A DNA stretch of 64,000 nucleotides from contig JBFMAW010000023.1 in the NCBI GenBank assembly GCA_040755515.1, positions 39,383-103,382 of the forward strand, written 5' to 3'. Both the position numbers and the translations under genes were made by a program. The notes below the pieces were generated by a model. That model was given only the letters and a program-made list of their open reading frames with translations. It was not told the DNA's origin and ran no database searches. Below, in pieces: positions 25,129 to 63,968 of the stretch. Positions within the stretch are counted from its first letter, which is position 1, and each line of letters opens with the position of its first letter. This DNA is from Thermodesulfobacteriota bacterium. Lineage in GTDB: Bacteria > Desulfobacterota > Desulfarculia > Adiutricales > JAGVGV01.

Positions 25129-25446
25129 GGCCTGAACCGTTGCCGAGAGGTGTAGTATAAAGCCGACGGCCGTGAGAGCGGTTCGGTACAGAGGAAGAGT
25201 TATTGGAATACGGAGTGGATCAGGCTGAATAAATTATTAATCTTTGTGCTTCTATATTGTGTAGGCATGGAATAGACTTAGTTCTTAAGAAATGGAAGCA
25301 GTTTCATCGGGGTCAAGGCCGAATCCTTAATCAACTTACGCCCCTTGACTCCGATTTTTATTTTGACCGGAAGCCACGAGGCCTCATGACCTTTATAGAG
25401 GCTAAATCAGCATAATTTCGCTCTTGAGGTAAATGGAGGTGGTGTT

Positions 25447-26589: not shown

Positions 26590-26639
26590 GAAAAGAAATA
26601 AAATTATACAAAAAAATCTATATATATGGATAGGCAAGA

Positions 26640-29413: not shown

Positions 29414-29692
29414 AATATTTATGGAAATAAAGTTCTCCAAAAAAATCAATTCGATTACGAGGCCAATATTTTCGTATATTAAGATCAAGTTCAACATAAA
29501 TATTGGATTAGAAAATGAAACATTTATAGAGAAGTTTAAAGGTAACGAATATGAATAAATGAGGATGTTACATGTAATCGGTAAAGATAACGGTTTCATA
29601 GCTATGTAAAAAGCATTATACAGTATAAACATGAAAAAAATATTGAATAAATCGCGCGAGAGAATATTTTTATAAACAAGAGGAATGGTATT

Positions 29693-31123
29693 TTGACCGG
29701 ACACGACCGGAACCTGGAAGCGTTCATATCTCCACGATCGGTGGCGGTCATAGGCGCCACCGAAAGACCTGGCTCCTGGGGATCGTTCATCATGTTAGGC
29801 CTGAAGTCCCTGGATTATAACGGAGATATATTCCCAGTGAATACGAGCGCCAGCGAAATTTATGGCCTACCAGCGTACAAAGACATACGGGAAATAAGCG
29901 GACCCGTGGATCTGGCCGTGCTAGCCATTCCAGAAGAATATGTAGAGACGGCTATAGAAGCCTGCGGTCAAAAAGGCGTTAAAGGAATAACGATTATCAC
30001 GGCAGGGTACGGAGAGGAATCTGAAGAAGGAAGGGAGCGGCAACGACATCTGGCCCGATTGGCCGCCTTAAATGACCTGCGCGTTCTTGGTCCAAACGTG
30101 AGCGGCACGTTCAATCTTCACGCCGGCTTCAATGCCTCCTCGACGCCAGGCCATGATCTTCTGGCCACGCCGGTCGCGGCCGTATGTCAGGGCGGGTACG
30201 CCTTCTACGACATGCTTTCGGTGGGCGGAGAGCAAGGCTACGGCGTGGGTTGGTTCATCCACACCGGGAACGAAGCTGACCTGACCATCACGGATTTTCT
30301 GGAGCACTTCGGCCGAAAGGACGAGGTCAAGGCAGTGGTCATGTACATCGAGACCGTTCGGGACGGACAGCACTTTCTGGACGCGGCCAGGGCCGCGGCG
30401 GCGAAAAAGCCGGTGCTGGTATATAAAGCCGGCCGCACGGCCGGTTCGGCCCGAGCCGCCCGCAGTCATACAGGCGCCCTGGCCGGTAACAAAGACATAT
30501 ACCAGGGACTGTTCAGGCAGACCGGCCTGGTCATGTGTCCAACCATGGAACTGCTGTTGCCCGCGGCTCATGCCCTGATCGAACGTCCAGCCATGCGCGG
30601 ACGGCGAGTGGGCATCATCACCGTGGGCGGATCGTGGGGCGTATCCCTGACCGACGCCCTGGAGGAAACCGGGCTGCTGGTCCCCGAATTCAGCCCCGGG
30701 TTGCAAGAAACCTTGCGGGAGAAGGGATTGCCGGAGCGGGCTTCGGTAAGGAATCCCGTGGATTTCGGAGCATCGGGTCTGTTCCTGTCCCAGGACACGC
30801 CGGGTCTCCTGGCCCGGGAAATCCTGGCTTCCGGCGAAGTGGACGCCCTGGTGGCGCACGGCCTCGGCCGGCCGGGACTACATGATCGGAACACGCCGGA
30901 CGAATGGAAGTTGTTCCTGGAGATCGAAAAGAACCAGGTGAGGAGCCTGGCCGCCCTGGAGAAAGAGTTCGATCTGCCGGTCCTGATAGGCAGTTATTAC
31001 CACCCCTGGCAAAGCCAGGCGGTCAGCGACCTGAACAAGGAAGGATATAGAATTTATAATCGCCTGGTGGAGACGGCGCAAATATTGTTGATGATGAGCG
31101 AGTACTGGAGCCGGCGCCGTTGA
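29693..31123 (+). CDS. CoA-binding acyl-CoA synthetase (NDP-forming)-like protein / acetate-CoA ligase alpha-domain family
   Basis: …PRSVAVIGATERPGSWGSFIM…GDIFPVN… (CoA-binding Rossmann, succinyl-CoA-synthetase alpha-like) and …VKAVVMYIETVRDGQHFLDAARAAAAKKPVLVYKAGRTAGSARAARSHTGALAG… (ligase-CoA domain). Confidence 0.7.
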   Translation: MTGHDRNLEAFISPRSVAVIGATERPGSWGSFIMLGLKSLDYNGDIFPVNTSASEIYGLPAYKDIREISGPVDLAVLAIPEEYVETAIEACGQKGVKGITIITAGYGEESEEGRERQRHLARLAALNDLRVLGPNVSGTFNLHAGFNASSTPGHDLLATPVAAVCQGGYAFYDMLSVGGEQGYGVGWFIHTGNEADLTITDFLEHFGRKDEVKAVVMYIETVRDGQHFLDAARAAAAKKPVLVYKAGRTAGSARAARSHTGALAGNKDIYQGLFRQTGLVMCPTMELLLPAAHALIERPAMRGRRVGIITVGGSWGVSLTDALEETGLLVPEFSPGLQETLREKGLPERASVRNPVDFGASGLFLSQDTPGLLAREILASGEVDALVAHGLGRPGLHDRNTPDEWKLFLEIEKNQVRSLAALEKEFDLPVLIGSYYHPWQSQAVSDLNKEGYRIYNRLVETAQILLMMSEYWSRRR

Positions 31124-52223: not shown

Positions 52224-52667
52224 ATGAGGATTGATGAGACCAGTCTGGAAATCATCAAGCGTCTGAAAGACGGCCGGAAATCCTTTCGCGAAATCGCCCA
52301 GGAGTTGTCCATCTCCGAAAACACGGTCCGCTCCAGGGTGAACAGACTCCAGGAAGAAGGAATCCTGGAAATCGCCGGTTTGGTTGATCCTTCCGCCATG
52401 CCCGGCCACGCCCTGATTCTGGTGGGAGTGAAGCTCCTGACCATGGAATTGGTCAAGAAAGGAGAAGAATTAAGCCGGCTGCGGGGTGTGGTGTCCGTCA
52501 GCGTGGTCACCGGCCGTTTCGATATCATCCTGTTGGTTTTATTGAACCAGGAATTCGGATTATTGCAGTTTTACACCGAGGAAATGTCCAGGGTGAAGGA
52601 CGTGGGTTCGGTGGAAACCTTTGTGGTTTACAAATCCTTCAATCTTAAGGTTTCTTATATTTTGTGA
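52224..52667 (+). CDS. lrp: Lrp/AsnC-family transcriptional regulator
   Basis: …LEIIKRLKDGRKSFREIAQELSISENTVRSRVNRLQEEGIL… HTH domain plus C-terminal RAM/ACT-like domain. Confidence 0.85.
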   Translation: MRIDETSLEIIKRLKDGRKSFREIAQELSISENTVRSRVNRLQEEGILEIAGLVDPSAMPGHALILVGVKLLTMELVKKGEELSRLRGVVSVSVVTGRFDIILLVLLNQEFGLLQFYTEEMSRVKDVGSVETFVVYKSFNLKVSYIL

Positions 52668-52755: not shown

Positions 52756-53160
52756 ATGAAAGAAATCAGCGAACTCGTTCTGCCCGAATATGTCCGCTAC
52801 GCCAAGGACCACGAATGGGTCCGGCCCCTGAACGGCCGGGTCAAGATAGGTGTTTCGGATTATGCCCAGGATCAATTGGGCGACATCACTTTTGTCGAAC
52901 TGCCCGAGACGGGTGACGTTTTCGAGGCCGGCGAAGAATTCGGGACCCTGGAGTCCACCAAAGCGGTGGGCGAACTGTTCATGCCTCTGGCCGGCGAGGT
53001 TACGGCCGTGAACAAGGCCCTTCTGGACGAACCGGGCCTGGTCAACAGGGACCCGTACGGAGAAGGCTGGTTGGTGGAATTGGAGCCGGAGGACCCCGAA
53101 GCCGTCGAGGAAATGATGAATCGGGAAGAGTACCTGGACATGCTGGAAAGGATGGTGTAG
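52756..53160 (+). CDS. gcvH: Glycine cleavage system H protein
   Basis: …HEWVR…VKIGVSDYAQDQLGDITFVELPETGDVFEAGEEFGTLESTKAV… lipoyl-Lys motif (ESTKA). Start at the internal ATG preceded by AAGGAGG. Confidence 0.9.
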   Translation: MKEISELVLPEYVRYAKDHEWVRPLNGRVKIGVSDYAQDQLGDITFVELPETGDVFEAGEEFGTLESTKAVGELFMPLAGEVTAVNKALLDEPGLVNRDPYGEGWLVELEPEDPEAVEEMMNREEYLDMLERMV

Positions 53161-54483
53161 ATGCGCTATCTGCCCCATACGCCGGAGGACGTGGCGGCCA
53201 TGCTGTCGGCGATCGGCCTTTCCGACCTGGACGATCTTTTCTCCATGGTGCCGCCGGACTGCCGCTGGCCGGACGATCTGAATCTGCCGCCGGCCCTGTC
53301 CGAACTGGAGTTGATCCGCCACTTGTCCGATCTGGCCGACCGATCGGCCCAGGGATATAAGGTCTTCCTGGGGGCGGGTCGGTACGAGCACTTCGTGCCT
53401 GAGACCGTTCGCTATCTGCTGGGCCGCTCCGAGTTCAGCACCGCCTACACGCCTTATCAACCCGAACTCAGCCAGGGCACCCTCCAGGCCATCTACGAGT
53501 ATCAGACCCTGATCGCCAGGCTGTTGGGACTGGATGTGGCCAACGCCTCTCTTTACGACGGGGCCACGGCCCTGGCCGAGGCCCTTTTCATGGCCGTCCG
53601 GATAACCAGGCGCACCCGGGTGGCGCTGTCCCGGGCCATCCACCCGGCCTATCGGCAGGTGGTCAAGACATATTTCCGGCCGACCGGTTACGAGGTGATC
53701 GAGTTGCCCTACGGGTCTGACGGCCGGACCGATCTGACGGCCCTGGAGGGAGGGGGAGGCCTGGCGGCCGTGGCCGTGCAGTCACCCAACTTCTTTGGAT
53801 GCATTGAAGACCTGCCGGCCGCCTCTGACCTGGCTCACCGCAGGGAGGCCTTGATGGTGGCCACGTTCACCGAGGCCCTGGCTTATGGCTGGCTCAAGAA
53901 TCCGGGCGGCTCAGGCGCGGACATCGCCTGCGGCGAAGGTCAGAGCCTGGGGCTGCCGCGCGGTTTCGGCGGGCCCGGCCTGGGCCTGTTCGCCTGTCGG
54001 AATCAGTTCGTCCGCAACATGCCGGGGCGTCTGGTCGGCCAGACCCAGGACCTGGAAGGCCGCCGGGGTTTTGTCCTGACCCTGGCCACCCGGGAACAGC
54101 ATATCCGGCGGGAAAAGGCGGTCTCGAACATATGCACCAACAACAGCCTCTGCGCGCTGACCGCGGCCATGTTCCTGGCTTCGGCCGGGTCCCAGGGCCT
54201 GAAAAACATGGCCAGGCTCAATTACGACAAAAGCGAGTACTTGAAGAACAGACTGGACCGGGCCGGCCTGGCCCCGAGTTTCTCCGCTCCGACTTTCAAT
54301 GAGTTCGTGTTCCAGGGACCGGGTGACGCCGGATTCTACCGGCGTTTGCTCGATAAAGGCATGGCGGCCGGCCTGCCGTTAGGGACCTGGTACCCCGAGT
54401 TGGAAGGCCATTTTCTTATCTGCGTCACCGAAGTCAAGACCAGGAGCGATTTGGACCACCTGGTCGAGGAGATGATAAAATGA
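53161..54483 (+). CDS. gcvPA: Glycine dehydrogenase (decarboxylating) subunit 1
   Basis: MRYLPHTPEDVAAMLSAIGLSDLDDLF… canonical GcvPA N-terminus. Confidence 0.9.
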   Translation: MRYLPHTPEDVAAMLSAIGLSDLDDLFSMVPPDCRWPDDLNLPPALSELELIRHLSDLADRSAQGYKVFLGAGRYEHFVPETVRYLLGRSEFSTAYTPYQPELSQGTLQAIYEYQTLIARLLGLDVANASLYDGATALAEALFMAVRITRRTRVALSRAIHPAYRQVVKTYFRPTGYEVIELPYGSDGRTDLTALEGGGGLAAVAVQSPNFFGCIEDLPAASDLAHRREALMVATFTEALAYGWLKNPGGSGADIACGEGQSLGLPRGFGGPGLGLFACRNQFVRNMPGRLVGQTQDLEGRRGFVLTLATREQHIRREKAVSNICTNNSLCALTAAMFLASAGSQGLKNMARLNYDKSEYLKNRLDRAGLAPSFSAPTFNEFVFQGPGDAGFYRRLLDKGMAAGLPLGTWYPELEGHFLICVTEVKTRSDLDHLVEEMIK

Positions 54484-55934
54484 CCATCTTTCCGGGCGCG
54501 GGCGGTCTGGTTTTCAACGAACCGCTCCTCTGGGAAAAGGGGAAAAAGGGTCGCTGCGGTCTCAGTCTTCCCCAGACCGACGTTCCGGCCGCCGCGTTGG
54601 ACGAAAGCCTGACCGCCGAAACGCCGGACCTGCCCGACCTGTCCGAACTGGAGATAGTGCGGCACTACACCCGCCTCTCGCAGTGGAACGTGGGGGTGGA
54701 TTCCGTCTTCTATCCCCTGGGTTCCTGCACCATGAAGTACAACCCGAAGATCAACGAAAAACTGGCCGGGTTGGCCGGACTGGCCGAAGCCCATCCCCTG
54801 CTGCCGGTCGAGTTGAACCAGGGACCGCTCAAGCTGATATACGATATGGAACGCTTCCTGGCCGCCATTACCGGCCTGGACGCGGTCAGCCTTCAACCCA
54901 CGGCCGGGGCCCACGGAGAATTGACGGGCATGCTCATTCTGAACGCCTATCACCACCATCTGGGACGCCCCAGGTCCAAAATCATCGTGCCGGACACGGC
55001 CCACGGAACCAACCCGGCCAGCGCGGCCATGTGCGGTCTGACGCCGGTGAACGTCAAATCCGGCGAACGGGGGGTGCTGACGCCCCAAGCCGTGACCGAA
55101 GTCATGGACGAAGACACGGCCGGAGTCATGATCACCAATCCCAACACCCTGGGCCTGTTTGAGGAACACATCAAGGAGATCGCCGATATAGTCCACGGCC
55201 GGGGAGGACTGGTCTATTTAGACGGCGCCAACCTGAACGCGGTCATGGGTATCGTCCATCAGGGACGAGCCGGCGTGGACGTAATGCACCTGAACCTGCA
55301 TAAGACTTTCAGTACGCCGCACGGCGGCGGAGGCCCGGGCGCCGGCCCGGTCTGCGTCAACCAAAACCTGGCCAGGTTTCTGCCCGTGCCTCGGGTCGTG
55401 GAAAAAGAAGGCCGTTACCTTGTGTCCGAGGACTTTCCCGACTCCGTGGGCCGGCTGCACGCCTTTCACGGCAACTTCGGGGTGATAGTCAAGGCCTATT
55501 GTTATATCCTCAGCCTGGGGCCTGATCTGAAAAAGGTGAGTCAACTGGCGGTGCTCAACGCCAACTACCTCAAAGAAAAGCTCAAGGGAACGCTTCATCT
55601 GCCCTACGACCGTCCCTGCCTGCACGAGTGCGTCTTTTCGGACAAGTATCAGAAGGGCCACAAGACCACTACCTTGGATTTGGTCAAAGGCCTGATGGAT
55701 TACGGCTTTCATCCGCCCACGATCTACTTTCCGCTGGTGGTCCCGGGCGCCATCATGATCGAACCTACCGAAACCGAGACCAAAGAGGAACTGGACCTGT
55801 TCATCGAGGCGTTCCAGGCCGTGGCGGCCGAGGCGGAGGCCGACCCCGAAAGCCTGCGCCGCGCGCCGAAAAGAACCAAGGTGACCAGACTGGACGAAAC
55901 CGCGGCGGCCCGGCGGCCCTGTCTGGCGGGTTGA
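54480..55934 (+). CDS. gcvPB: Glycine dehydrogenase (decarboxylating) subunit 2
   Basis: …NLHKTFSTPHGGGGPGAGPVCV… PLP-Lys region of GcvPB. Confidence 0.9.
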   Translation: MTIFPGAGGLVFNEPLLWEKGKKGRCGLSLPQTDVPAAALDESLTAETPDLPDLSELEIVRHYTRLSQWNVGVDSVFYPLGSCTMKYNPKINEKLAGLAGLAEAHPLLPVELNQGPLKLIYDMERFLAAITGLDAVSLQPTAGAHGELTGMLILNAYHHHLGRPRSKIIVPDTAHGTNPASAAMCGLTPVNVKSGERGVLTPQAVTEVMDEDTAGVMITNPNTLGLFEEHIKEIADIVHGRGGLVYLDGANLNAVMGIVHQGRAGVDVMHLNLHKTFSTPHGGGGPGAGPVCVNQNLARFLPVPRVVEKEGRYLVSEDFPDSVGRLHAFHGNFGVIVKAYCYILSLGPDLKKVSQLAVLNANYLKEKLKGTLHLPYDRPCLHECVFSDKYQKGHKTTTLDLVKGLMDYGFHPPTIYFPLVVPGAIMIEPTETETKEELDLFIEAFQAVAAEAEADPESLRRAPKRTKVTRLDETAAARRPCLAG

Positions 55935-55966
55935 ACCGGCCGGCGGTCGAGAAGCGGAGTCAGGCG

Positions 55967-56491
55967 ATGAAAAAGTACATGATTCTTTTCGTGGTGGGTA
56001 AAGACAGGCCCGGCATCGTGGACGACGTCTCCACCATGCTCTTCGAACGCGGGGCCAACATCGAAGACAGCCGCATGGCCACTTTGGGCGGGTGCTTTTC
56101 CATCATGGTGCTGATCTCCTGTCCCGAGGAGAAGGCCGTGGAAGTCAGAAGGGGCCTGGAGGTACTGTCAGGCCTGGGCTTCGACGCCTATCTTCACGAA
56201 GCCGCCGATCCGGTTTCGGTCCCCAGGCAGGTGGAAATACCCATGTCACTTGAAATCAGAGCCATGGATCATCCGGGCATAGTCCAAAAGGTGGTCCGCC
56301 TCCTGCGCCGCCGCAACGTTAACATTGAGAGCCTGGACACCCACGTGACCAGCGCCCCCTGGTCCGGCGCGCCGCTCTTCAACCTGCGGCTGTCCGCCGG
56401 CGTGCCGGCCGGCCAGTCCATCATGAAGATCAAGGAGGAACTGACGGCCTTGGCCGCGGAGATGAACCTGGACTTGAGTTTCGGACGATAG
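55967..56491 (+). CDS. Tandem-ACT-domain protein, GcvR-like (glycine cleavage system regulatory protein homolog)
   Basis: 174 aa with two ACT domains (MKKYMILFVVGKDRPGIVDDVSTMLFERGANIEDSRM… and …IRAMDHPGIVQKVVRLLRRRNVNIESLD…). The architecture matches the E. coli GcvR/YbeD class. Confidence 0.65.
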   Translation: MKKYMILFVVGKDRPGIVDDVSTMLFERGANIEDSRMATLGGCFSIMVLISCPEEKAVEVRRGLEVLSGLGFDAYLHEAADPVSVPRQVEIPMSLEIRAMDHPGIVQKVVRLLRRRNVNIESLDTHVTSAPWSGAPLFNLRLSAGVPAGQSIMKIKEELTALAAEMNLDLSFGR

Positions 56492-56534
56492 CCGGCGCCC
56501 CGCGGCAGGACGCGGAAATCCTTCCCGGCGCCGG

Positions 56535-56709
56535 CGTATCGAGGAAAACCGGCTTCCCAACTTCTCGCCTCGCTGCTACGTCATGGACACCGGCAACGTC
56601 ACTCTTGCCGGGCGTTCCTCGGACCTGTTGAACGATCCCGAGGTGAAACGGGTGTACCTGGGGGGTAAGAATATCAGCCACGAAGGGCACGAAGAACACG
56701 AAGGTTTAT
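56535..56709 (+). pseudogene. 3'-terminal remnant (~55 codons) of a livF-like branched-chain amino-acid ABC transporter ATPase gene
   Basis: Translation …IEENRLPNFSPRCYVMDTGNVTLAGRSSDLLNDPEVKRVYLGGKNISHEGHEEHEGL* aligns with the C-terminus of the intact LivF in this window (…VEQNALMALQVASRGYVLQSGRIVLHDSTDNLSENEMVRKAYLGES). No upstream ABC domain is present. Confidence 0.5.
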
Positions 56710-56943
56710 GAGGTAATTGCAAAACCCCAGCGTCTCTGTGGATTTCCGATTTTTCACCCAGACCAAAACCGTGACGTCGCGATGGTTCGATGATCCCGCC
56801 ATCGGCCAAAGCCCCTGACGCCACCCTGCACTCCATACAATGAAGGCAGGGGCGCACCAAGCTTAAAACGGAATGGGGCGCGATCCGACCGCCCAATCCG
56901 ACCGCCTCATAAAGCTCACCGCATTCGGAAGATGCTTTACTCA

Positions 56944-56987
56944 TCGGTCAACTCATGTGCTACCTAATTCGGTCAGATCATGTGCTA
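56944..56987. repeat. Two 19-bp direct repeats (TCGGTCAACTCATGTGCTA / TCGGTCAGATCATGTGCTA, 25-bp period) in the AT-rich non-coding region
   Basis: 17/19 identity between copies; each contains CATGTG. Candidate regulator-binding iteron or recombination scar. Confidence 0.5.
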
Positions 56988-57121
56988 GCGACATTATCCC
57001 CTAAAATGTCTTGACTTAAGGGTCGCACTACAGTAATTTGGGACAAAGGCAAATTATGAGATTTATGAGGAGGTAGAGAAGAATTTTAGCGAGTAAAGTG
57101 GGATAACCCCTTTTTTTCTTC

Positions 57122-57151
57122 TTGACATGAAATTTTCATTTGTTATATATT
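57122..57151 (+). promoter_or_regulatory. Candidate sigma70 promoter (TTGACA-17-ATATAT), giving a ~450-nt leader upstream of livJ
   Basis: Perfect -35 TTGACA at 57122-27, a 17-nt spacer and an AT-rich -10 at 57145-51. Downstream ORFs up to livJ look spurious. Confidence 0.4.
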
Positions 57152-57610
57152 TTATAGATTCTAAAGTGAGTTCTTATTATTTCATCTAAATCGGGAAATA
57201 AGGAGCCTAGAGGGAACGGCGCCAAGCACTTCATACCCGCCGCTCCGCAACAGGGAAAGCAATTTACAGTGTGGGTGGGCTTGCGGGGAGGAGATCTCCA
57301 GGTTGTAGCGACCGACATCCCCATCTTGTTCCCCGGCGACATGATCGGAGGGAGCCAAAAGAGGAGATTACGCGCTTGAACGCGCTGGACGAGTGATTGG
57401 CCAATGGACTACGTGAGGCATATGACTCGGACGCCGTAAAGGAGGTATGTCCTGTCATTAGAAAGGGAGGAATGAGCCATCGAAAATCCTCCGCCGGGGT
57501 ATGCGAAGCTGCGACCATACCACTGTTATTGACCGAGGCAAGGGATCGGCTCCCAAATCGAGTTTCGGTATGTTTAAATCTCCATAAAAACTTCGAAGGA
57601 GGGTCTTGCA

Positions 57611-58867
57611 ATGAAAAAGCTTCGTATCATTTCCCTTATTGTTTTAGGCGGTCTGTTCATTGTTCTAGCAGCCCATCCGGCTGCGGCTCAAACAAAGGTC
57701 ATCAAGGTCTATCAGAGTTGGCCGTTACAGGGGGCCATGATCCCCGAAGGCAAGGCCATGCTGAATGCCGCCCAGATGGCGTTGGACGAGGTAAAAGGGC
57801 AGGTTGCCGGCTACAAGATTGAGTTGGTTTTCCTGGATGATGCCTCTCCGACCACCGGCTCGTGGGACGGCACGATCGAAGCGAACAACGCGCAAAAAGC
57901 CATCGCCGACCCACAATGCCTCGTCTACTTCGGCACCTACAACTCCGGCGCCGCCAAGGTCTCCATGCCCCTGACCAACGAGGCCGGCATGGCGCAGATC
58001 ACCCCGGCGAACAGTTATCCCGGCTTGACCAAACCCGGCTATGCCCCCGGTGAACCGGGTATCTACCGTCCGACGGGCAAGGTCAACTACTTCCGCACGT
58101 TCGGCGCGGATGATTTCCAGGGCGCCTCCGGTGCGGCCTGGGCGAAATGCCTCGGCTTCAAGAAGGTTTACATCCTTGATGACCGCCAGCTTTACGGCAA
58201 GGGCATAGCCGATGTTTTCGAGAAGAGCGCCAAGCAACTCGGGCTGCAAGTCGCCGCCCACGACGGCATCGAGTCCGTGAACATAGACTTTCGCGCGCTG
58301 CTCACCAAGGTCAAGGCCTCCGGTGCGGACCTCGTCTACTTCGGCGGGTTGGTGGATTCCGGCGGTCCCCAGATCGCGCAGCAATTGGACGCCCTGGGAT
58401 TGTTCAAGGCAGGCGCCAAACTGCTCTCCGATGACGCCATGTATTCAGACGCCGTTCCCAAGGCGGTCAGCCCCAACGTTCTCAACGGCAACCTGTACGT
58501 GACCTTCGCCAGCCCGGCTTTGGACCAACTGCCGACCGACGTGGGCAAGAACTTTTACAAGAACTACAAGGCCAAGTTCGGCGGGGAACCCATCGGGTGG
58601 TCCATTTACTCTTACAACGCCATGTTGGTGATCCTGGATTCGATCAAGAGGGCTGCGCCAATGCTCGATAAGGCCGCTGACGTCAAGGCCAAGCGCGCCG
58701 CGGTCCTCGAGGCAATGCGCGCCACCAAGGACCTGGATGGCGTCTCCGGCAAGATCACCTTCGACCAAAACGGCGATCCGACGACCTACCTGATGTCCGG
58801 CTTTTTGTTCAAAGACGGCAAGTACGTCTGGCAGCGGAATATCAGCGGCGACATGACCTGCAAGTAG
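57611..58867 (+). CDS. livJ: Branched-chain amino-acid ABC transporter substrate-binding protein (LivJ/LivK family)
   Basis: Signal peptide plus type-I periplasmic binding protein features (…VIKVYQSWPLQG…VKGQVAGYKIELVFLDDAS…). Confidence 0.85.
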   Translation: MKKLRIISLIVLGGLFIVLAAHPAAAQTKVIKVYQSWPLQGAMIPEGKAMLNAAQMALDEVKGQVAGYKIELVFLDDASPTTGSWDGTIEANNAQKAIADPQCLVYFGTYNSGAAKVSMPLTNEAGMAQITPANSYPGLTKPGYAPGEPGIYRPTGKVNYFRTFGADDFQGASGAAWAKCLGFKKVYILDDRQLYGKGIADVFEKSAKQLGLQVAAHDGIESVNIDFRALLTKVKASGADLVYFGGLVDSGGPQIAQQLDALGLFKAGAKLLSDDAMYSDAVPKAVSPNVLNGNLYVTFASPALDQLPTDVGKNFYKNYKAKFGGEPIGWSIYSYNAMLVILDSIKRAAPMLDKAADVKAKRAAVLEAMRATKDLDGVSGKITFDQNGDPTTYLMSGFLFKDGKYVWQRNISGDMTCK

Positions 58868-59033
58868 CATTCGCGGAATCTCGTCTTACCCTGGCGATCG
58901 GATTTTTTCGTCGCCAGGGTAAGTTTTTGGACCGCGGCGGTTAAACGCATTTTCGCCTATATCATCAGCCGTTGGCGCATGTGCGCGGTGTTGAAAAGAT
59001 CCTCAGATTACCCGATGAGGGGGATGGGGTTAG

Positions 59034-59972
59034 ATGACCGAGACTGAGCTTTTCATGCAGCTCCTTATCAACGGGGTCACGATCGGCTCTTACCTGGCCT
59101 TGATCGCCTTGGGCTACACCATGGTGTACGGCATCATCGAGCTGATCAATTTCGCCCACGGCGACATCTACATGTTGGGTTTCCTGATCTCGCTGACCTT
59201 CCTGGGGTTTCTCGATGTCAACTCGACCCTGGGAGGCTGGTACCTGTGGGTCATTATCTTCGGGGTGATGTTCGTGACCATGATCTGCACGGGAACGATC
59301 AACATGCTGATCGATCGCATCGGCTATAAACCGCTGCGCCGCGCCCCGCGCTTGGCCGCGCTCATCACGGCGGTCGGCATGTCCTTCATGTTGGAGAACT
59401 TGGCCATGATCTGGAGGGGACCCAGCCAGATCAATTATCCGAACATCTTCCCCACGATCGACATTCTGAACGATATGCTGGGAATGAAGACCGCCGTGCT
59501 CTTTACGACCAAGGACGTGTTTCTCATGGGCTTCACCGTGCCGTTGATGGTACTCTTGAGCCTGTTCATTCGGAAAACCAAGATGGGCAAGGCCATGCGG
59601 GCCACGGCCCAGGATCGCGAGGCGGCGGCGTTCATGGGCATCAACGTCGAGACGGTGATTCGCAACACGTTCTTTATCGGCGGCGCCCTCGCCGGTGCGG
59701 CCGGTATGGTGGTCGGCATTTACCTGAACACAGGCCGTTACCTGATGGGTTTTGACGCCGGCCTTCTGGCGTTCACCTCGGCGGTCTTGGGAGGCATTGG
59801 CAATATCGGTGGTGCGGTGTTGGGCGGCTACGTCATCGGTTTTCTCAACGCCTTCAGCGATCAATATTTATCCTCGGAATGGACGCGTGCCCTGGTCTTT
59901 ACGATACTCATCCTGGTGCTGGTCTTCAAACCATCCGGGCTCCTGGGCATTCGCACACAGGAGAGAGACTGA
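59034..59972 (+). CDS. livH: Branched-chain amino-acid ABC transporter permease
   Basis: …LLINGVTIGSYLALIALGYTMVYGIIELINFAHGDIYMLG… canonical LivH. Confidence 0.9.
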   Translation: MTETELFMQLLINGVTIGSYLALIALGYTMVYGIIELINFAHGDIYMLGFLISLTFLGFLDVNSTLGGWYLWVIIFGVMFVTMICTGTINMLIDRIGYKPLRRAPRLAALITAVGMSFMLENLAMIWRGPSQINYPNIFPTIDILNDMLGMKTAVLFTTKDVFLMGFTVPLMVLLSLFIRKTKMGKAMRATAQDREAAAFMGINVETVIRNTFFIGGALAGAAGMVVGIYLNTGRYLMGFDAGLLAFTSAVLGGIGNIGGAVLGGYVIGFLNAFSDQYLSSEWTRALVFTILILVLVFKPSGLLGIRTQERD

Positions 59973-59982
59973 GCGGGGGGCT

Positions 59983-61131
59983 ATGGCTGAACTCTGGCAT
60001 TCGTTGACTGGTCCCTGGCGGGCACTGCCAGTTCGGCAGCGCCAGATCCTCACCTGGTCCTGCTCGATTCTTCTGCTCCTGACATTTCCCCTGTTGGACA
60101 AGGCGTTCAGATGGGGAATCGTCAATGATGTCACAGACGTGCTGGTCCTGGTGATCCTGGCTCTCGGCCTGAACATCGTCGTCGGCTATGCCGGTCTTCT
60201 CGACCTGGGTTACGCCGCGTTCTTTGCGATCGGCGCCTATACCACGGGGGTCCTCACCTGGCCTGGGCATCCCTTGCAATGGAATTTTTGGATCGTTATC
60301 TGGGCCGCCGTGATTGTCGCCGCGTTTTGCGGCATCATCATCGGTACCCCAACATTGCGCCTGCGCGGCGACTATCTCGCCATCGTTACGCTGGCTTTCG
60401 GCGAAATCGTGCCCGTCGTCATGCGCAATTTGGGCAGTGTGTCGATCGGCATCGGGCCCTGGCGGCTGGTCAGCGACTTCAACTTGACCAACGGGGTGCA
60501 GGGGCTGAACCCGGTCGGGCGGCCGTCGGTTTTTGGATTTACCTTCAGCTTCGACCCCACACCCTGGTATTACCTGATCTTGATTATCGCCGCCCTCGTC
60601 ATTTTCGCGAACGTGCGCTTGCAGTATTCACGCCTGGGCAGGGCCTGGATGGCGCTGCGCGAGGACGAAACCGCCGCGGACTGCATGGGGGTTGACCCCA
60701 TTCGAACCAAACTCCTGGCTTTTGCCATCGGTGCCTCTTTCTCTGGGTTTGCGGGAGCGTTTTACGCGGCCAAACTGCAAGCGATCTTCCCGGAGTTGTT
60801 CAAGTTCAATTTGTCGATCATGATCCTGTGTATGGTCATTCTCGGCGGCATGGGCAACATCAAAGGGGTCGTGATCGGTGGCTTGATGCTCCAACTCTTT
60901 GACCGCGTCATCCTGACTCAGACCACTTTCTTTGTACGCTACGTCGGCCAGTCGCTTCACATTGCTCCGCTGGCAACGGTTGACCTCTCTTTGTGGCGGT
61001 GGTTCTTCTTTGGTTTGGCGATGGTGGTTGTTATGGTGCTCAAACCTGAAGGGCTCTTTCCCAGCGCCGTGCGGCGCGCTGAATTCCACGCGGCGGAAGA
61101 AGAAATGCCCCAGCCGGCCGAAAGAGGATAG
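59983..61131 (+). CDS. livM: Branched-chain amino-acid ABC transporter permease
   Basis: …VLVLVILALGLNIVVGYAGLLDLGYAAFFAIGAYT… canonical LivM. Start chosen at the internal ATG 10 nt after the livH stop. Confidence 0.85.
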   Translation: MAELWHSLTGPWRALPVRQRQILTWSCSILLLLTFPLLDKAFRWGIVNDVTDVLVLVILALGLNIVVGYAGLLDLGYAAFFAIGAYTTGVLTWPGHPLQWNFWIVIWAAVIVAAFCGIIIGTPTLRLRGDYLAIVTLAFGEIVPVVMRNLGSVSIGIGPWRLVSDFNLTNGVQGLNPVGRPSVFGFTFSFDPTPWYYLILIIAALVIFANVRLQYSRLGRAWMALREDETAADCMGVDPIRTKLLAFAIGASFSGFAGAFYAAKLQAIFPELFKFNLSIMILCMVILGGMGNIKGVVIGGLMLQLFDRVILTQTTFFVRYVGQSLHIAPLATVDLSLWRWFFFGLAMVVVMVLKPEGLFPSAVRRAEFHAAEEEMPQPAERG

Positions 61132-61145
61132 CGGAGGAGACGGCC

Positions 61146-61979
61146 ATGGCCTTGTTGGAAGCTCGAAGGATCAGCAAGCGATTTGGCGGCTTGACCGCGG
61201 TGTCTGAACTCGACCTCGATATCGAGAACGGCACGATCGCAAGTCTGATCGGCCCGAACGGCGCGGGCAAGACGACCTTTTTCAACATGGTCTCCGGCAT
61301 CTACAAGCCAACGTCCGGTCAGATGTTGCTCGATGGCAAGGAGATCGGCGGCCTGCGCCCCAATCGCGTTACTGCGCTGGGGCTGGGACGGACCTTCCAA
61401 AATATCCGTCTCTTCAGCAACATGACCGCCCTCGAGAATGTATTGGTCGGAATGAACTGCCGCCTGGAATCGACTTGGTACGGTGCACTGCTGCGAACGC
61501 GGTCCGTGGTGCAGGAGGAGGCCAATGCGCGCGGGCGCGCGCAGGAGCTCTTGGCGTATGTAGGCTTGGGTGGCAAGGCCGAGACCACCGCCAAGAACCT
61601 TCCTTACGGACTTCAGCGGCGGTTGGAGATCGCCCGGGCTCTGGCGTCCCAGCCGAAGCTCATGCTCCTGGACGAGCCTACCGCCGGCATGAACCCGCAG
61701 GAAACCGTCGACGCGATGGCGCTGATCAAGCGCGTGCGCGACGATTTGGGCATCACGATCCTACTGATCGAGCACGATATGAAAGTGGTGATGAGCATCT
61801 CGGAATTTATCACCGTTCTGGATTATGGCGCCAAGATCGCGGAAGGAACGCCGGATCAGGTGCGTACCAACCCGAAAGTCATCGAAGCCTACCTCGGCAA
61901 AGGGGTCGCCACCGGGATCAGGCGAGCAAAACGAAAGGTCGTGGCCCAAACAGAGAGCGAGGAAGATGGCGCTGCTTGA
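61146..61979 (+). CDS. livG: Branched-chain amino-acid ABC transporter ATP-binding protein
   Basis: Walker A GPNGAGKTT, ABC signature and Walker B LLLDEP. Confidence 0.9.
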   Translation: MALLEARRISKRFGGLTAVSELDLDIENGTIASLIGPNGAGKTTFFNMVSGIYKPTSGQMLLDGKEIGGLRPNRVTALGLGRTFQNIRLFSNMTALENVLVGMNCRLESTWYGALLRTRSVVQEEANARGRAQELLAYVGLGGKAETTAKNLPYGLQRRLEIARALASQPKLMLLDEPTAGMNPQETVDAMALIKRVRDDLGITILLIEHDMKVVMSISEFITVLDYGAKIAEGTPDQVRTNPKVIEAYLGKGVATGIRRAKRKVVAQTESEEDGAA

Positions 61980-62679
61980 ACTCCATAACGTCCACACATA
62001 TTACGGCAATATCCACGCCCTTAAAGGCATCTCGGTTACCGTCGACAAGGGCGAGGTCGTTACGCTCATCGGCTCGAACGGGGCCGGAAAAACGACCACA
62101 CTCAAGACGATCTCCGGCGTGCTGCGGCCCAAAGAGGGAACGATAACGCTCGATGGACGGCGGATAGACCGCGTCCCGGCCCACGACATCGTCGCAATCG
62201 GCATCTGCCAGGCGCCGGAAGGCCGCCGCATCTTCCCCCGGCTGACGACCCTCGAAAATCTGGAAATGGGTGCCTTCCACCGTGACGACAAGATCGGCAT
62301 CCAGCAAGACCTGGAGCGCGTGTTTGAGCTCTTTCCAAGGTTGAAAGAAAGACGGAGTCAGTTGGGCGGGACACTCTCCGGCGGAGAGCAGCAAATGCTG
62401 GCGATCGGACGCGCCCTGATGTCGCGTCCGAGTATCCTGCTTCTGGACGAGCCAAGTATGGGACTTTCGCCGGTTCTAGTCGAAGCGATTTTCCAGATCA
62501 TCCAAGACATTCACACGCAGGGCATTACGATCCTTTTGGTCGAACAGAACGCCCTCATGGCACTCCAGGTGGCGAGTCGGGGTTATGTGCTGCAGAGCGG
62601 ACGCATCGTGCTGCATGACAGCACAGATAATCTGAGCGAAAACGAGATGGTGCGCAAAGCATACTTGGGAGAATCATGA
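61966..62679 (+). CDS. livF: Branched-chain amino-acid ABC transporter ATP-binding protein
   Basis: MALLELHNVHTYYGNIHALKGISVTVDKGEVVTLIGSNGAGKTT… ; overlaps the livG stop by 14 nt. Confidence 0.9.
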   Translation: MALLELHNVHTYYGNIHALKGISVTVDKGEVVTLIGSNGAGKTTTLKTISGVLRPKEGTITLDGRRIDRVPAHDIVAIGICQAPEGRRIFPRLTTLENLEMGAFHRDDKIGIQQDLERVFELFPRLKERRSQLGGTLSGGEQQMLAIGRALMSRPSILLLDEPSMGLSPVLVEAIFQIIQDIHTQGITILLVEQNALMALQVASRGYVLQSGRIVLHDSTDNLSENEMVRKAYLGES

Positions 62680-62975
62680 CCGCGTGAGGCAATGACAGGC
62701 TATAAATGGAGTACACCTCACCCTGGCTGCCGGAGAAAAACTGGATAGGTCAATAGGCTCAGGCATCTTCCTCCTCCTTTTTATTTTATCATTCATCAGA
62801 GCGTCCAACTAGCACCTTTTTCCCTTTCATCTTGTCCAGATTGGACTGAAACATTATAGATGGCCGCACCTATAACTTTATGGACAAGGTCCTCCAATTC
62901 ATCGGTAAGTACGCTTTCGACCCTCAGCTTCATTCTTGCTTATAAGGAAAAAAAATTCCTTCGTGTTCTTCGTGG

Positions 62976-63968
62976 CTAAAATATCTTCTCCGGGACGAAG
63001 TCCGAGCTTCTGACCTCTTTCATGGTAATGGCCTCGGACGGACAGGTGACTTGGCAGAGGCCGCAGCCCAGGCATTTCTCCGCGGCCACCCTGGCCGACT
63101 CATCCTCGATGGCAATGGCCTTGAAGAAACAGCGGGTCAGGCAGGTCTCGCAGGCGGTGCACCTGTCCGGGTCCACTTCGGCCGCGAACCGGCTCGGCTC
63201 GATGACCTTGATGCCGTGCTCGATCAGGATGGGCATGGTCTGGCAGCAGCAGGCGCAGCAGTTGCAAATAAAGTGGTCCACGTCCCGCTTGTTGATCACC
63301 ACGTGAATGAGGCCGGCTTCCTCGCACTTCTTCATCAGGTCCAGGGTCTCCTCTTTAGTCAACTCCCGGCCCGTGCCGCGGTTAAGGGAATAGGCCGCGG
63401 CGTTGTTGATCTGGAGGCAGACTTGGAGCGGTTTGTCGCATTTGTGGGCGGTGAGGCGGCAGGTGCAATTGGTCACGGCCAGTTTCCAGGCCCGGGACAC
63501 GATCTCCTTGATGTCTTCGTAAGCCAGTATCTGGCTCCTGGCCGGCACGGTCACGCCCACCGGTATGATCCGGGTGAACGGCCGGGGCAGGAGTTGATTG
63601 TACGTCCTGGCCATCTCCGGCCATTCCACTTCCATCAGTTCCTGCCAGAGGTCGAGAAACTCCCGGGGGGCCTCCGGCCAGAGTATGGTGGCGTCATGGA
63701 ACTGGACGAAATCCCGGCAGAGCCGGTATGAAGGCGGACTGGTCTTGGAAGAAGGGAAGACCAGACCCTTGAGAAAAAGCTCCCGCAAGGACCGGGCAAC
63801 CTCTTCCTCCGGGCGTCCCAACTTCGCGGCCACGGCCGGGGCCTGGCCCGGCAGCGTCAATAGAATATCGGCTTCGGCCGGATCGGCCAGCATCTTGAAC
63901 AGTTTCGGCGCTCTTTCCGATTGGCCCAGCCCGATTCTTCGGGCCAACTCCAGGTACCGGGATGCCAT
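62976..63968 (-). CDS. Iron-sulfur cluster-binding protein (4Fe-4S dicluster domain plus CNCCACCC Cys-rich segment)
   Basis: C-terminal …CTACETCLTRC…CLGCGLCQVTCP… is ferredoxin-like, preceded by HFICNCCACCCQ. The N-terminal ~150 aa lacks a recognisable family. Confidence 0.65.
   Translation of the reverse strand: MASRYLELARRIGLGQSERAPKLFKMLADPAEADILLTLPGQAPAVAAKLGRPEEEVARSLRELFLKGLVFPSSKTSPPSYRLCRDFVQFHDATILWPEAPREFLDLWQELMEVEWPEMARTYNQLLPRPFTRIIPVGVTVPARSQILAYEDIKEIVSRAWKLAVTNCTCRLTAHKCDKPLQVCLQINNAAAYSLNRGTGRELTKEETLDLMKKCEEAGLIHVVINKRDVDHFICNCCACCCQTMPILIEHGIKVIEPSRFAAEVDPDRCTACETCLTRCFFKAIAIEDESARVAAEKCLGCGLCQVTCPSEAITMKEVRSSDFVPEKIF

What the first reader, a model, noticed from the sequence alone, without database searches (positions are those of the whole stretch)
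56492..62679. livF 3' remnant + 0.9 kb AT-rich non-coding stretch with direct repeats and a strong promoter, followed by a compositionally distinct intact livJHMGF operon: signature of operon replacement
Directly after gcvR, a frame encodes only the last ~55 residues of a LivF-like ATPase with no upstream ABC domain. Then comes ~900 bp of atypically AT-rich, ORF-poor DNA. It contains two 19-bp direct repeats 25 bp apart, a TTGACA-17-ATATAT promoter, and a ~450-nt leader before livJ. The intact liv operon that follows looks lower in GC than the neighbouring gcv genes. The likely history is that an ancestral liv operon was deleted or rearranged and a xenologous copy inserted. The long leader could hold an attenuator or riboswitch-like element; I could not recognise a T-box or any other known motif.
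Basis: partly seen in the sequence, partly recalled or inferred. Interest (0 to 1): 0.55.

Follow-up and report, generated by a model that had tools for sequence, protein, structure and literature searches.

The report
Transporter operon swap scar
Next to the glycine-cleavage genes lies the dead tail of an old amino-acid-transporter gene, followed by an intact, horizontally spread transporter operon whose long "leader" is partly (about 70 of ~450 bases recognisably) the wreck of an aminotransferase gene; this is an ordinary case of gene replacement, not a new RNA switch.

Summary
A true LivF C-terminal remnant (56538-56669, frame to 56711) follows gcvR. The 19-bp direct repeats, the TTGACA promoter at 57122 and a ~455-nt leader are all real. 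Two points fail. Only ~300 bp (56950-57250) is AT-rich. The liv operon is not compositionally distinct: GC 0.582, the 35th percentile of same-size windows.

The replacement idea is supported by comparison with other genomes instead. The livJHMGF block (57111-62704) recurs at 84-90% nucleotide identity in about 20 metagenomic loci, in at least 12-14 different contexts. Its four-fold-site identity to four of those loci is 0.69-0.85; the adjacent gcv genes in the same genome pairs give 0.42-0.53. The remnant is 57% identical to the LivF of a different liv operon that follows gcvR in a relative, and about 30% identical to the window's own LivF.

The distal leader contains a recognisable fragment of a decayed class-III aminotransferase gene. 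The proximal 170 nt is retained in nearly all relatives. It has no Rfam match, no covariation, no excess folding energy and near-neutral divergence. The riboswitch reading is therefore unsupported.

Verdict: an ordinary xenologous operon displacement scar. The recurrence of LivF tails next to this operon elsewhere is a mildly interesting side observation.

The parts
55958..56491 (+). gcvR-like gene with two ACT domains, intact; last gene of the gcvH-PA-PB-gcvR cluster
   Evidence: Pfam ACT_6/ACT. NCBIfam glycine cleavage repressor match below cutoff. 100% identical to P0046 from an NCBI Thermodesulfobacteriota MAG; the next homologue is 68% identical.
56538..56711 (+). 3' remnant (tail) of a LivF-type ABC ATPase gene, corresponding to about residues 194-241 of LivF plus a 14-codon extension to the stop. 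No Walker A/B, signature or start. The breakpoint lies within 56492-56537.
   Evidence: 57% identity to L067 LivF (47 bits) against 30-36% to every type-B LivF.
56712..57110 (.). Orphan spacer with no homologue in any fetched locus or in plasmids, stops in all frames, GC 0.50. It contains the repeat elements listed in the next four entries.
56702..56713 (+). Copy 1 of the 12-mer AGRTTTATGAGG. The other copies are at 56905-56916 (- strand, 1 mismatch) and 57059-57070 (+).
   Evidence: Three copies within 370 bp against 0.43 expected in the whole 64 kb.
56901..56918 (.). Left arm of an 18-nt inverted repeat (16 of 18 complementary) that brackets a 174-bp segment holding the direct repeats and the start of the AT-rich stretch. 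The right arm is 57057-57074.
   Evidence: No other copy in the window or in the loci.
56944..56987 (+). Two 19-bp direct repeats, TCGGTCAACTCATGTGCTA and TCGGTCAGATCATGTGCTA, starting 25 bp apart
57057..57074 (.). Right arm of the 18-nt inverted repeat; it contains 12-mer copy 3
57111..62704 (+). The shared 'type-B liv module': promoter, leader and livJHMGF plus 25 bp after the livF stop. This is the maximal extent of nucleotide homology to other loci.
   Evidence: Block boundaries from blastn. Four-fold-site identity 0.69-0.85 against 0.42-0.53 for the adjacent gcv genes.
57122..57151 (+). Sigma-70-type promoter, TTGACA-18-TATATT, 11 of 12 consensus positions
   Evidence: Conserved in seven related loci. 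Lies 459 nt upstream of the ATG.
57158..57354 (+). Distal leader. It is homologous to the leaders of L020, L027, L049 and others. AAGGAG lies at 57200-57205; the ATG seen in relatives reads AGG here (57211-57213). Relatives carry different deletions and insertions in this stretch.
57355..57426 (+). Fragment of a class-III aminotransferase pseudogene (KEEITRLNALDE*LANGLREAYD, with an in-frame stop at 57394-57396)
   Evidence: 91% nucleotide identity to L064 8136-8217, which lies downstream of L064's aminotransferase pseudogene. The longer L025/L064 version matches PDB 6k8h 'Aminotransferase class-III' residues 338-387, E=6.7e-8. Intact aminotransferase genes lie upstream of livJ in L004, L011, L033, L046, L052 and L058.
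57440..57610 (+). Proximal leader retained in 22 distinct loci. It includes anti-SD AUCUCC (57578-57583) and SD GGAGG (57598-57602), predicted to pair.
   Evidence: Found only upstream of type-B livJ: 15 true hits among 42 metagenome pattern hits.
57611..58867 (+). livJ-like periplasmic substrate-binding protein (Peripla_BP_6); substrate unknown
59034..59972 (+). livH-like permease
59980..61131 (+). livM-like permease
61146..61979 (+). livG-like ATPase (ABC_tran + BCA_ABC_TP_C)
61960..62679 (+). livF-like ATPase, intact

Best explanation
The stretch is an evolutionary junction, not a device.

(1) 56538-56711 is the dead 3' tail of a LivF gene. It belonged to an older HAAT-family ('type A') liv operon that most likely lay downstream of gcvR, as it still does in one relative. 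A deletion removed everything from just after gcvR to about LivF residue 190.

(2) 56712-57110 is orphan spacer of unknown origin carrying a few short repeats.

(3) From 57111 to 62704 lies a self-contained 'type B' liv module that has spread horizontally among anaerobic lineages. It brings its own strong sigma-70 promoter (57122-57151) and a ~455-nt transcribed leader. The distal part of that leader contains what is left of a class-III aminotransferase gene that once preceded livJ. The proximal 170 nt is retained in nearly all copies. The module also carries intact livJHMGF.

How it works now (inferred): transcription starts near 57158 and runs through the junk leader into livJ. livJ is translated from GGAGG (57598-57602). 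This can pair with an upstream AUCUCC, so translation may be damped by a simple SD-sequestering hairpin.

Shown here: identity of the tail, extent and spread of the module, pseudogene origin of a recognisable fragment of the leader, conservation of the promoter.

Inferred: resident origin of the tail, order of events, the transcription start, any regulation.
For: Tail
- It is LivF-like at database scale.
- Among all LivF-like sequences in 70 loci its best match is L067 LivF (57%, 47 bits). Every type-B LivF, including the window's own, scores 30-36% (25-31 bits).
- L067 has gcvT-H-PA-PB-gcvR-adh-livJHMGF on one strand. Its GcvR is 66% identical to the window's; its LivJ is only 25% identical to the window's LivJ.

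Horizontal spread of the module
- Nucleotide homology to about 20 loci starts at 57111, 57310 or ~57450 and ends at 62679-62704 in all of them.
- Four-fold-site identity between the window and L001, L005, L006 and L063 is 0.69-0.85 for liv. It is 0.42-0.53 for gcvPA/PB, and lower for gcvH, in the same genome pairs.
- This is not a codon-bias floor: more distant liv operons fall to 0.37-0.56.
- There are 14 distinct downstream contexts among 17 loci and 12 upstream contexts among 23.
- IS91/Y2-transposase fragments abut the module in L020, L024, L027 and L055.

Leader
- Intact class-III aminotransferase genes lie upstream of livJ in L004, L011, L033, L046, L052 and L058; pseudogenes with stops lie there in L003 and L064.
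- The L025/L064 fragment matches PDB aminotransferases at E=6.7e-8, and the window's 57345-57426 is 91% identical to it.
- Relatives show different internal deletions.
- The promoter is conserved.
Against: - No close relative of the window genome exists in the databases; the next GcvR is 68% identical. The pre-replacement state of this exact locus was therefore never observed.
- Only one relative, L067, has a liv operon directly after gcvR. L066 and L070 have none in the region shown; L065 has only a HAAT operon on the opposite strand about 5 kb downstream; L068 and L069 end just past gcvR and are uninformative.
- 57% identity over 35 residues is within the range of the best unrelated database LivFs (50-64%), so orthology of the tail with L067 LivF is not proven.
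- Composition gives no sign of foreign origin.
- The window has no mobility gene or tRNA near the module.
- gcv and type-B liv are also adjacent, in the other orientation, in L001, L005, L006, L026 and L063. This could mean an old linkage rather than a recent arrival.
Confidence: 0.65

Rival explanations
1. Tandem paralogues, not replacement. The genome once had two HAAT operons in tandem after gcvR (type A, then type B), both long resident. The upstream one simply decayed by deletion. No incoming DNA was involved at this locus.
For: HAAT operons are numerous and often clustered in these genomes: a second LivJ-like gene lies in L020, and another HAAT operon lies near gcvR in L065. liv composition equals the genome average. 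gcv-liv(type B) adjacency recurs in five other loci.
Against: Type-B liv is far less diverged at four-fold sites than the adjacent gcv genes in the same genome pairs (0.69-0.85 against 0.42-0.53). It lies in 12-14 unrelated contexts, with sharp homology ends at the promoter and 25 bp after livF. Long residence in this lineage is therefore unlikely.
Confidence: 0.15
2. The LivF tail and the 400-bp spacer are donor flank. They arrived together with the type-B module from an unsampled donor in which the module had been inserted next to a liv operon.
For: LivF tails lie next to the type-B module in at least three other independent contexts: L006, L007 (with L025/L064) and L020. Such tails can therefore travel or arise with the module. 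Nothing in 56492-57110 matches any other sequence.
Against: The four tails differ in sequence (47-48% identity to the window's tail), position (upstream or downstream) and strand. Homology to the nearest relatives of the module (L020, L027, L059) stops at 57111, although their own upstream flanks are mutually homologous. L067 shows a type-A liv operon at the syntenic position.
Confidence: 0.2
3. The long leader, or at least its proximal 170 nt (57440-57610), is a cis-regulatory RNA that controls livJ translation. This could be a riboswitch, or an RNA that senses a protein or temperature. It is not exclusive of the history given under Best explanation.
For: The proximal segment is kept in 22 distinct loci although the DNA upstream of it has been replaced or deleted in several different ways. 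Strong promoters lie 199-582 nt from the ATG in every locus where one was scored. The pattern is found only upstream of type-B livJ. The proposed helices are 94% compatible across sequences, and an AUCUCC/GGAGG hairpin that sequesters the SD is predicted.
Against: - No Rfam family matches, even at E<=10, in the window or in seven other loci.
- There is no covariation: 93.6% paired against 93.5% in shuffles; score 0.079 against 0.073, reached by 76 of 500 shuffles.
- MFE z-scores are +0.9 and +1.0.
- Divergence equals that of the pseudogene part (0.77-0.84 against 0.80-0.87 identity) and is close to that of four-fold sites.
- A covariance model finds nothing in more distant type-B-like leaders except L010, and there mainly through the SD region.
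- L006 has an unrelated leader.
- No + strand terminator is predicted.
Confidence: 0.25

Closest known systems
Xenologous gene/operon displacement in situ (mosaic operons; Omelchenko et al. 2003, Genome Biol 4:R55, cited from my own knowledge; the concept is cited in PMC1779527 and PMC9425974)
   Same: A functional class (a HAAT ABC transporter) at a locus is now provided by a phylogenetically discordant copy. A relic of the displaced homologue remains alongside.
   Different: The whole operon, not one gene, is the incoming unit. It sits beside the relic rather than exactly in its place. The pre-displacement state is inferred from a single distant relative.
E. coli livJ / livKHMGF high-affinity branched-chain amino-acid transporter (LIV-I)
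   Same: Same five-component architecture and the same Pfam families. The best NCBIfam hits are LivH, LivM, LivG and LivF.
   Different: All scores are well below the equivalog cutoffs (e.g. LivJ 94 bits against 477), so the substrate is unknown. Repeated adjacency to gcv genes and to a class-III aminotransferase hints at glycine or omega-/beta-amino acids rather than branched-chain amino acids (inference). E. coli liv is regulated by Lrp (my own knowledge). No Lrp-type control was tested here.
IS91 / ISCR (Y2 transposase) one-ended rolling-circle mobilisation of adjacent genes
   Same: Truncated Y2_Tnp fragments lie about 190 bp upstream of the module's promoter in L020, L024, L027 and L055, and on both sides of the module in L055.
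   Different: The window has no transposase fragment near the module; the only match is a chance-level hit at ~41.9 kb, E=5.6. The fragments are truncated, and no element ends were identified.
Glycine riboswitch (RF00504 / RF03166)
   Same: By eye, the leader segment CCGAGGCAAGGGGUCGG resembles the glycine aptamer core CUCAGGCAAAAGGAC. The operon is often next to gcv genes. True glycine riboswitches sit next to the module in L026, on the other strand, serving its divergent gcv operon.
   Different: The Rfam covariance models give no match to the liv leader at E<=10 in the window or in seven loci. It is not a member.

Membership tests
HAAT-family (Liv-type) ABC importer operon | A Peripla_BP_6 binding protein, two BPD_transp_2 permeases and two ABC ATPases, one with the BCA_ABC_TP_C tail | tested here: met
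   Pfam: Peripla_BP_6 4e-39; BPD_transp_2 1e-40 and 9e-49; ABC_tran 4e-31 and 1e-31; BCA_ABC_TP_C 1e-13 in LivG.
E. coli-type LIV-I (true LivJ/H/M/G/F equivalogs, branched-chain substrate) | Score at or above the NCBIfam equivalog cutoffs | tested here: not met
   LivJ 94 against 477 bits; LivH 225 against 379; LivM 218 against 366; LivG 299 against 362; LivF 281 against 441.
LivF gene remnant (pseudogene fragment) | Significant similarity to a LivF C-terminus, with the ATP-binding core, a start codon and an upstream frame all absent | tested here: met
   phmmer E down to 2e-6 against LivF C-termini in 1.84e9 proteins. Only residues ~194-241 are present, directly after the gcvR stop. Pfam finds no ABC_tran domain.
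Horizontally acquired block (comparative definition) | Much lower synonymous divergence than the flanking genes in the same genome pairs, and different genomic contexts | tested here: met
   Four-fold identity 0.69-0.85 (liv) against 0.42-0.53 (gcvPA/PB). 12-14 distinct flank contexts.
Genomic island (compositional / structural definition) | Deviant GC or codon usage, a flanking tRNA, an integrase or transposase, flanking direct repeats | tested here: not met
   GC at the 35th percentile; codon distance not an outlier. No tRNA in the window. No transposase match near the module in the window.
Xenologous displacement in situ | Relatives carry the displaced type at the same position | tested here: inconclusive
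   Only L067 has a type-A liv operon directly after gcvR. L066 and L070 have none; L065 has only an opposite-strand HAAT operon ~5 kb away; L068 and L069 are cut off just past gcvR. The nearest relative has a GcvR only 66-68% identical.
Known riboswitch or RNA leader families (Rfam 15, including Glycine and T-box) | A covariance-model match | tested here: not met
   No relevant match at E<=10 in 56300-57800. None in the leaders of seven related loci. The whole window gives 0 families at gathering score.
Structured cis-regulatory RNA (generic) | Covarying base pairs, or folding energy beyond that of shuffled sequence | tested here: not met
   Covariation 0.079 against 0.073 in shuffles, reached by 76 of 500. 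z = +0.90 and +1.01. Power is low: 22 sequences, mean column identity 84%.
Transcription attenuator (terminator/antiterminator leader) | An intrinsic terminator in the leader on the coding strand | tested here: not met
   The only terminator-like site in 56300-57800 is on the minus strand.
Class-III aminotransferase pseudogene (distal leader) | Collinear similarity to aminotransferase proteins, interrupted by stops or deletions | tested here: met
   L064 pseudogene against aminotransferase proteins, E=1e-29, with an internal stop. The L025/L064 C-terminal fragment against PDB 6k8h, E=6.7e-8. The window's 57345-57426 is 91% identical to that fragment and carries an in-frame stop. In the window itself only about 24 codons remain recognisable.
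IS91/ISCR-mobilised cassette | A Y2 transposase gene, or its ends, adjacent to the cargo | tested here: not met
   Present as fragments in L020, L024, L027 and L055 (Pfam Y2_Tnp 22.3 bits against cutoff 20.9). Absent near the module in the window.

The most novel reading that the evidence does not exclude
The type-B liv module may be a discrete mobile 'operon cassette' (promoter to 25 bp past livF). On this reading it lands repeatedly in or beside resident HAAT operons and leaves only the last 45-85 codons of the resident livF. Four independent tails were seen (window, L006, L007/L025/L064, L020), and no LivJ, LivH or LivM relics. IS91-like rolling-circle elements might mobilise it. Its always-retained 170-nt proximal leader might be an undescribed translational control RNA, tied to glycine or omega-amino-acid uptake next to gcv genes.
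Probability: 0.15. Interest if true: 0.6.

Novelty: new member of a known kind. Interest (0 to 1): 0.3.

Why it matters
The locus is a clean worked example of three things. A transporter operon can be exchanged between lineages without any compositional trace. Only synonymous-site and context comparison revealed the exchange here. A long 'leader' that looks regulatory can be partly a decayed gene.

For annotation: the LivF tail should be flagged as a pseudogene, and the leader should not be called a riboswitch.

If the recurrence of LivF tails beside this operon reflects a real targeting or recombination preference, it would be a small but new point about how ABC-transporter operons replace one another.

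The repeated juxtaposition with glycine-cleavage genes and an aminotransferase gives a testable hint about the transporter's substrate.

Tried and rejected
1. Compositional test of foreign origin (GC, GC3, codon distance, sliding windows): negative.
2. Rfam at permissive E-value on the leader, on seven related loci and on the whole window: nothing relevant.
3. Glycine-riboswitch resemblance seen by eye: not confirmed by the covariance models.
4. RNAalifold on 11 sequences plus a hand-built four-helix model on 22 sequences: compatible, but no covariation. A covariance model (R1) reached only L010 outside the clade.
5. Upstream ORF in the proximal leader (MSHRKSSAG..., with a TGA overlapping the livJ ATG in most relatives): rejected. 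The indels between relatives are not multiples of three, the window's frame differs, and the similar L012 and L013 sequences are read in different frames.
6. Minus-strand and overlapping ORFs in 56246-57822: no Pfam hit.
7. Exact-protein look-ups of the window's LivJ and GcvR: not on record.
8. Search for the orphan spacer: nothing in the fetched loci or in plasmids. LivJ in plasmids reaches at most 33% identity.
9. Transposase remnants in the window: none.
10. Contexts of six GcvR relatives, to find the ancestral arrangement: only L067 was informative.
11. Literature search for a 'livK motif': no paper in the library.

Full report
LAYOUT OF THE LOCUS

The window is about 58-59% G+C outside a 36% G+C island at 25.4-29.7 kb. 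The region of the finding contains, all on the + strand:
- gcvH (52756-53160), gcvPA (53161-54483), gcvPB (54480-55934);
- a two-ACT-domain gcvR-like gene (55958-56491);
- 1,119 bp without a credible gene;
- livJ (57611-58867), livH (59034-59972), livM (59980-61131), livG (61146-61979) and livF (61960-62679).

A minus-strand Fe-S protein gene follows at 62976-63968. GcvR is 100% identical to a protein from an NCBI Thermodesulfobacteriota MAG. The next best homologue is only 68% identical, so no close relative of this genome is available.

OBSERVATION CHECK

The frame that opens right after the gcvR stop reads RRPAAGRGNPSRRRRIEENRLPNFSPRCYVMDTGNVTLAGRSSDLLNDPEVKRVYLGGKNISHEGHEEHEGL*.
- It aligns to the last 44 residues of the window's own LivF (30% identity, E=4e-5).
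- In a filter-free phmmer search of 1.84 billion representatives it has 45 hits below 1e-3. Four top-ranked hits are repeat proteins and are discarded. The other hits inspected are LivF C-termini, e.g. ...SDRAYIMESGNITLEGRSSELIDDPRVKDAYLGG at 58% identity, and full-length 243-250-aa LivFs.
- The remnant is therefore real. It covers about residues 194-241 of a LivF and has no ATP-binding core.

Other features:
- The 19-bp direct repeats (56944-56962 and 56969-56987, 17 of 19 identical) are unique in the window and far beyond chance.
- The promoter TTGACA-18-TATATT at 57122-57151 scores 11 of 12.
- Only 56950-57250 is truly AT-rich (GC 0.39). The whole gap has GC 0.49-0.52, like other intergenic regions here.
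- The liv operon is not compositionally distinct. Its GC of 0.582 is the 35th percentile of same-size windows. GC3 is 0.70-0.79, and codon-usage distance is at the upper end of size-matched genes but not an outlier.

IS THE INTACT OPERON FOREIGN? COMPARATIVE EVIDENCE

A LivJ-based scan of one genome per species returned 22 loci. A DNA-pattern scan of metagenomes returned 15 more true loci.

Extent of the shared block:
- About 20 loci share 84-90% nucleotide identity with the window.
- The shared block always ends 0-25 bp after the livF stop (62679-62704).
- It begins at 57111, at 57310 or at about 57450, depending on the locus.
- Outside the block the loci are mostly unrelated: 14 distinct downstream contexts among 17 loci, and 12 upstream contexts among 23.

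Divergence compared with the backbone:
- In L001, L005, L006 and L063 the block lies next to gcvH-PA-PB, as in the window but in the opposite orientation. This allows an internal control.
- Between the window and these loci, four-fold-degenerate sites are 69-85% identical in the five liv genes. They are only 42-53% identical in gcvPA/PB. Amino-acid identity is 85-93% for liv against 63-69% for gcvPA/PB.
- This is not a codon-bias ceiling. More distant members of the same liv family fall to 37-56%.
- The liv block therefore shares a far younger ancestor across these genomes than their backbones do. That means horizontal transfer.
- The MAG labels span Desulfobacterales, Desulfarculaceae, Anaerolineae, NC10, Spirochaetia and Nitrospiria. 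I treat those labels with caution.
- In L020, L024, L027 and L055, truncated IS91-type (Y2_Tnp) transposase fragments lie about 190 bp upstream of the module's promoter. In L055 one also lies downstream. The window has none.

WHERE DOES THE LivF TAIL COME FROM?

- Among all LivF-like sequences in the 70 loci held, the best match to the remnant is the LivF of L067 (57%, 47 bits). Every type-B LivF, the window's included, scores 30-36% (25-31 bits).
- L067 was reached through its GcvR (66% identical). It carries AsnC-gcvT-gcvH-gcvPA-gcvPB-gcvR-adh-livJHMGF on one strand. Its LivJ is only 25% identical to the window's LivJ, so it belongs to a different HAAT lineage, called 'type A' here.
- This is the arrangement expected for the ancestor. 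A deletion from just after gcvR into livF would leave exactly what is seen.

The support is moderate:
- L066 and L070 have no liv operon after gcvR. L065 has only a HAAT operon on the opposite strand about 5 kb downstream. L068 and L069 are cut off just past gcvR.
- 57% identity over 35 residues is no higher than for the best unrelated database LivFs.
- The alternative that the tail and the 400-bp spacer came in as donor flank cannot be excluded. Against it, homology to the module's nearest relatives stops sharply at 57111, although those relatives share their own upstream flank with each other.

THE LEADER

The promoter and the first ~180 nt of the transcript are conserved in L020, L024/L055, L026, L027, L049 and L059.

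Evidence that the distal leader derives from a decayed gene:
- In those relatives an AAGGAG is followed by an ATG. The window reads AGG at that position (57211-57213).
- Further on, the window encodes ...KEEITRLNALDE*LANGLREAYD (57355-57426). This is 91% identical in DNA to a stretch of L064 that lies downstream of an aminotransferase pseudogene with internal stops (tblastn E=1e-29).
- The longer L025/L064 version (...EEIARLNALGERLANGLREAFDEVGMAGQVTGLGSMLNVHLTPHP) matches residues 338-387 of PDB 6k8h 'Aminotransferase class-III' (E=6.7e-8), and also matches glutamate-1-semialdehyde aminomutases.
- Intact class-III aminotransferase genes sit immediately upstream of livJ in L004, L011, L033, L046, L052 and L058.
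- Relatives carry different deletions of this region (L026 and L059), a 130-bp insertion with a second promoter (L014, L020), or complete loss with a new promoter about 185 nt from the ATG (L001, L005, L063).
- The distal leader is therefore best read as the wreck of a gene that once headed the operon. In the window itself only about 24 codons are still recognisable as aminotransferase.

THE PROXIMAL 170 nt (57440-57610)

Points in favour of a function:
- It is kept in 22 distinct loci.
- The core pattern occurs in metagenomes only upstream of type-B livJ: 15 true hits among 42, the rest being chance hits in GC-rich coding DNA.
- A hairpin pairing AUCUCC (57578-57583) with the SD GGAGG (57598-57602) is predicted in the window and in the alignment.

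Points against a structured RNA:
- No Rfam family matches at E<=10 in the window or in seven other loci, and the whole window has no Rfam hit at gathering score.
- A four-helix model is 93.6% compatible, but so are column shuffles (93.5%). The covariation score is 0.079 against 0.073, reached by 76 of 500 shuffles.
- Folding energies are no better than for shuffled sequence (z = +0.9 and +1.0).
- Sequence identity to relatives (0.77-0.84) equals that of the pseudogene fragment (0.80-0.87). It is only marginally above four-fold sites (mean 0.79 against 0.75).
- A covariance model built from the alignment finds only L010 among more distant leaders.
- L006 has an unrelated leader.
- A candidate upstream ORF is not frame-conserved.

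A riboswitch is therefore unsupported. With 22 sequences at 84% mean column identity the covariation test has little power, so a simple translational hairpin or a lineage-specific element remains possible (about 25%).

THE ORPHAN SPACER (56712-57110)

It has no homologue in any locus or in plasmids. It carries three kinds of repeat:
- the two 19-bp direct repeats;
- three copies of AGRTTTATGAGG within 370 bp (0.43 expected in 64 kb);
- an 18-nt inverted repeat (16 of 18 complementary) bracketing a 174-bp segment that contains the direct repeats.

These could be operator sites or a degenerate miniature element. I could not distinguish between the two.

A SIDE OBSERVATION

The only partial liv-gene relics in the fetched loci, apart from contig-edge truncations, are LivF tails. 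They retain LivF residues about 156-240. They occur next to the type-B module in L006 (downstream), in L007 with L025/L064 (downstream), in L020 (upstream, opposite strand) and in the window (upstream). No LivJ, LivH or LivM relics were found. The L007 and L020 tails, like the window's, resemble non-type-B LivFs. Four events are too few to claim a mechanism, but the pattern is worth a systematic survey.

VERDICT

This is an ordinary evolutionary scar, though a well-documented one. It consists of a LivF pseudogene tail, an orphan spacer, and a horizontally spread liv module whose leader is partly a decayed aminotransferase gene.
- The compositional claim is wrong.
- The replacement interpretation is supported in substance by independent evidence.
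- The riboswitch suggestion is not supported.

Novelty: a new member of a known kind (xenologous operon displacement). Interest: about 0.3.

Noticed in passing
window 25400-29750: A 4.3-kb island of 36% G+C (the rest of the window is ~58.5%). It has 3-4 ORFs (25447-26589, 26640-28247, 28244-29413, and 29384-29704 on the minus strand) with no Pfam match. It lies directly after Wzz/GNVR (20518-22137) and NAD-epimerase (22244-23260) genes. It looks like the foreign, variable part of a polysaccharide (O-antigen/EPS) cluster. This is the real compositional anomaly of the window.
   Followed up: partly
window 56702-57074: Three copies of the 12-mer AGRTTTATGAGG (56702 +, 56905 -, 57059 +; 0.43 expected in 64 kb). 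An 18-nt inverted repeat (56901-56918 / 57057-57074) brackets the two 19-bp direct repeats. These may be an operator cluster or a degenerate miniature element. No copy occurs elsewhere.
   Followed up: partly
L006 10590-10727; L007 15896-16078 (same flank in L025/L064); L020 4907-5179 (minus strand): Further independent LivF 3' tails lie right next to the same type-B liv module. No relics of LivJ, LivH or LivM occur anywhere in the fetched loci.
   Followed up: partly
L020 5116-5634; L024 1531-1725; L027 904-1029; L055 4571-4765 and 11335-11481: Truncated IS91-type (Pfam Y2_Tnp) transposase fragments lie about 190 bp upstream of the liv promoter, and on both sides of the operon in L055.
   Followed up: partly
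L001, L005, L006, L063, L026 (and window 52756-58867): The type-B liv module sits next to gcvH-PA-PB in six loci. It is divergent in five and co-directional in the window. The gcv genes are far more diverged than liv, which suggests repeated juxtaposition and a functional link, such as glycine or a related substrate.
   Followed up: no
L026 2869-3075 and 4574-4796 (minus strand): Genuine glycine riboswitches (RF00504 tandem pair at 68 and 40 bits; RF03166 at 65 bits, below its gathering score) lie upstream of that locus's divergent gcv genes. The second abuts the liv promoter. The window's own gcv cluster has no Rfam-detectable riboswitch; an AsnC/Lrp-type regulator gene lies at 52224-52667.
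   Followed up: no
L012 and L013 (about -225 to -1 of livJ); L019: More distant members of the same LivJ family also have strong TTGACA-17-TAnnnT promoters 199-225 nt upstream of livJ. Their leaders differ in sequence but begin with a similar purine-rich GGAGGUGAGAC-like element, which can pair with a downstream (G)UCACCUC or CCUC.
   Followed up: partly
L020 6444-7708; L021 2984-4154: livJ is split into two tblastn segments in these loci. This is an apparent frameshift, either an assembly error or a pseudogene.
   Followed up: no
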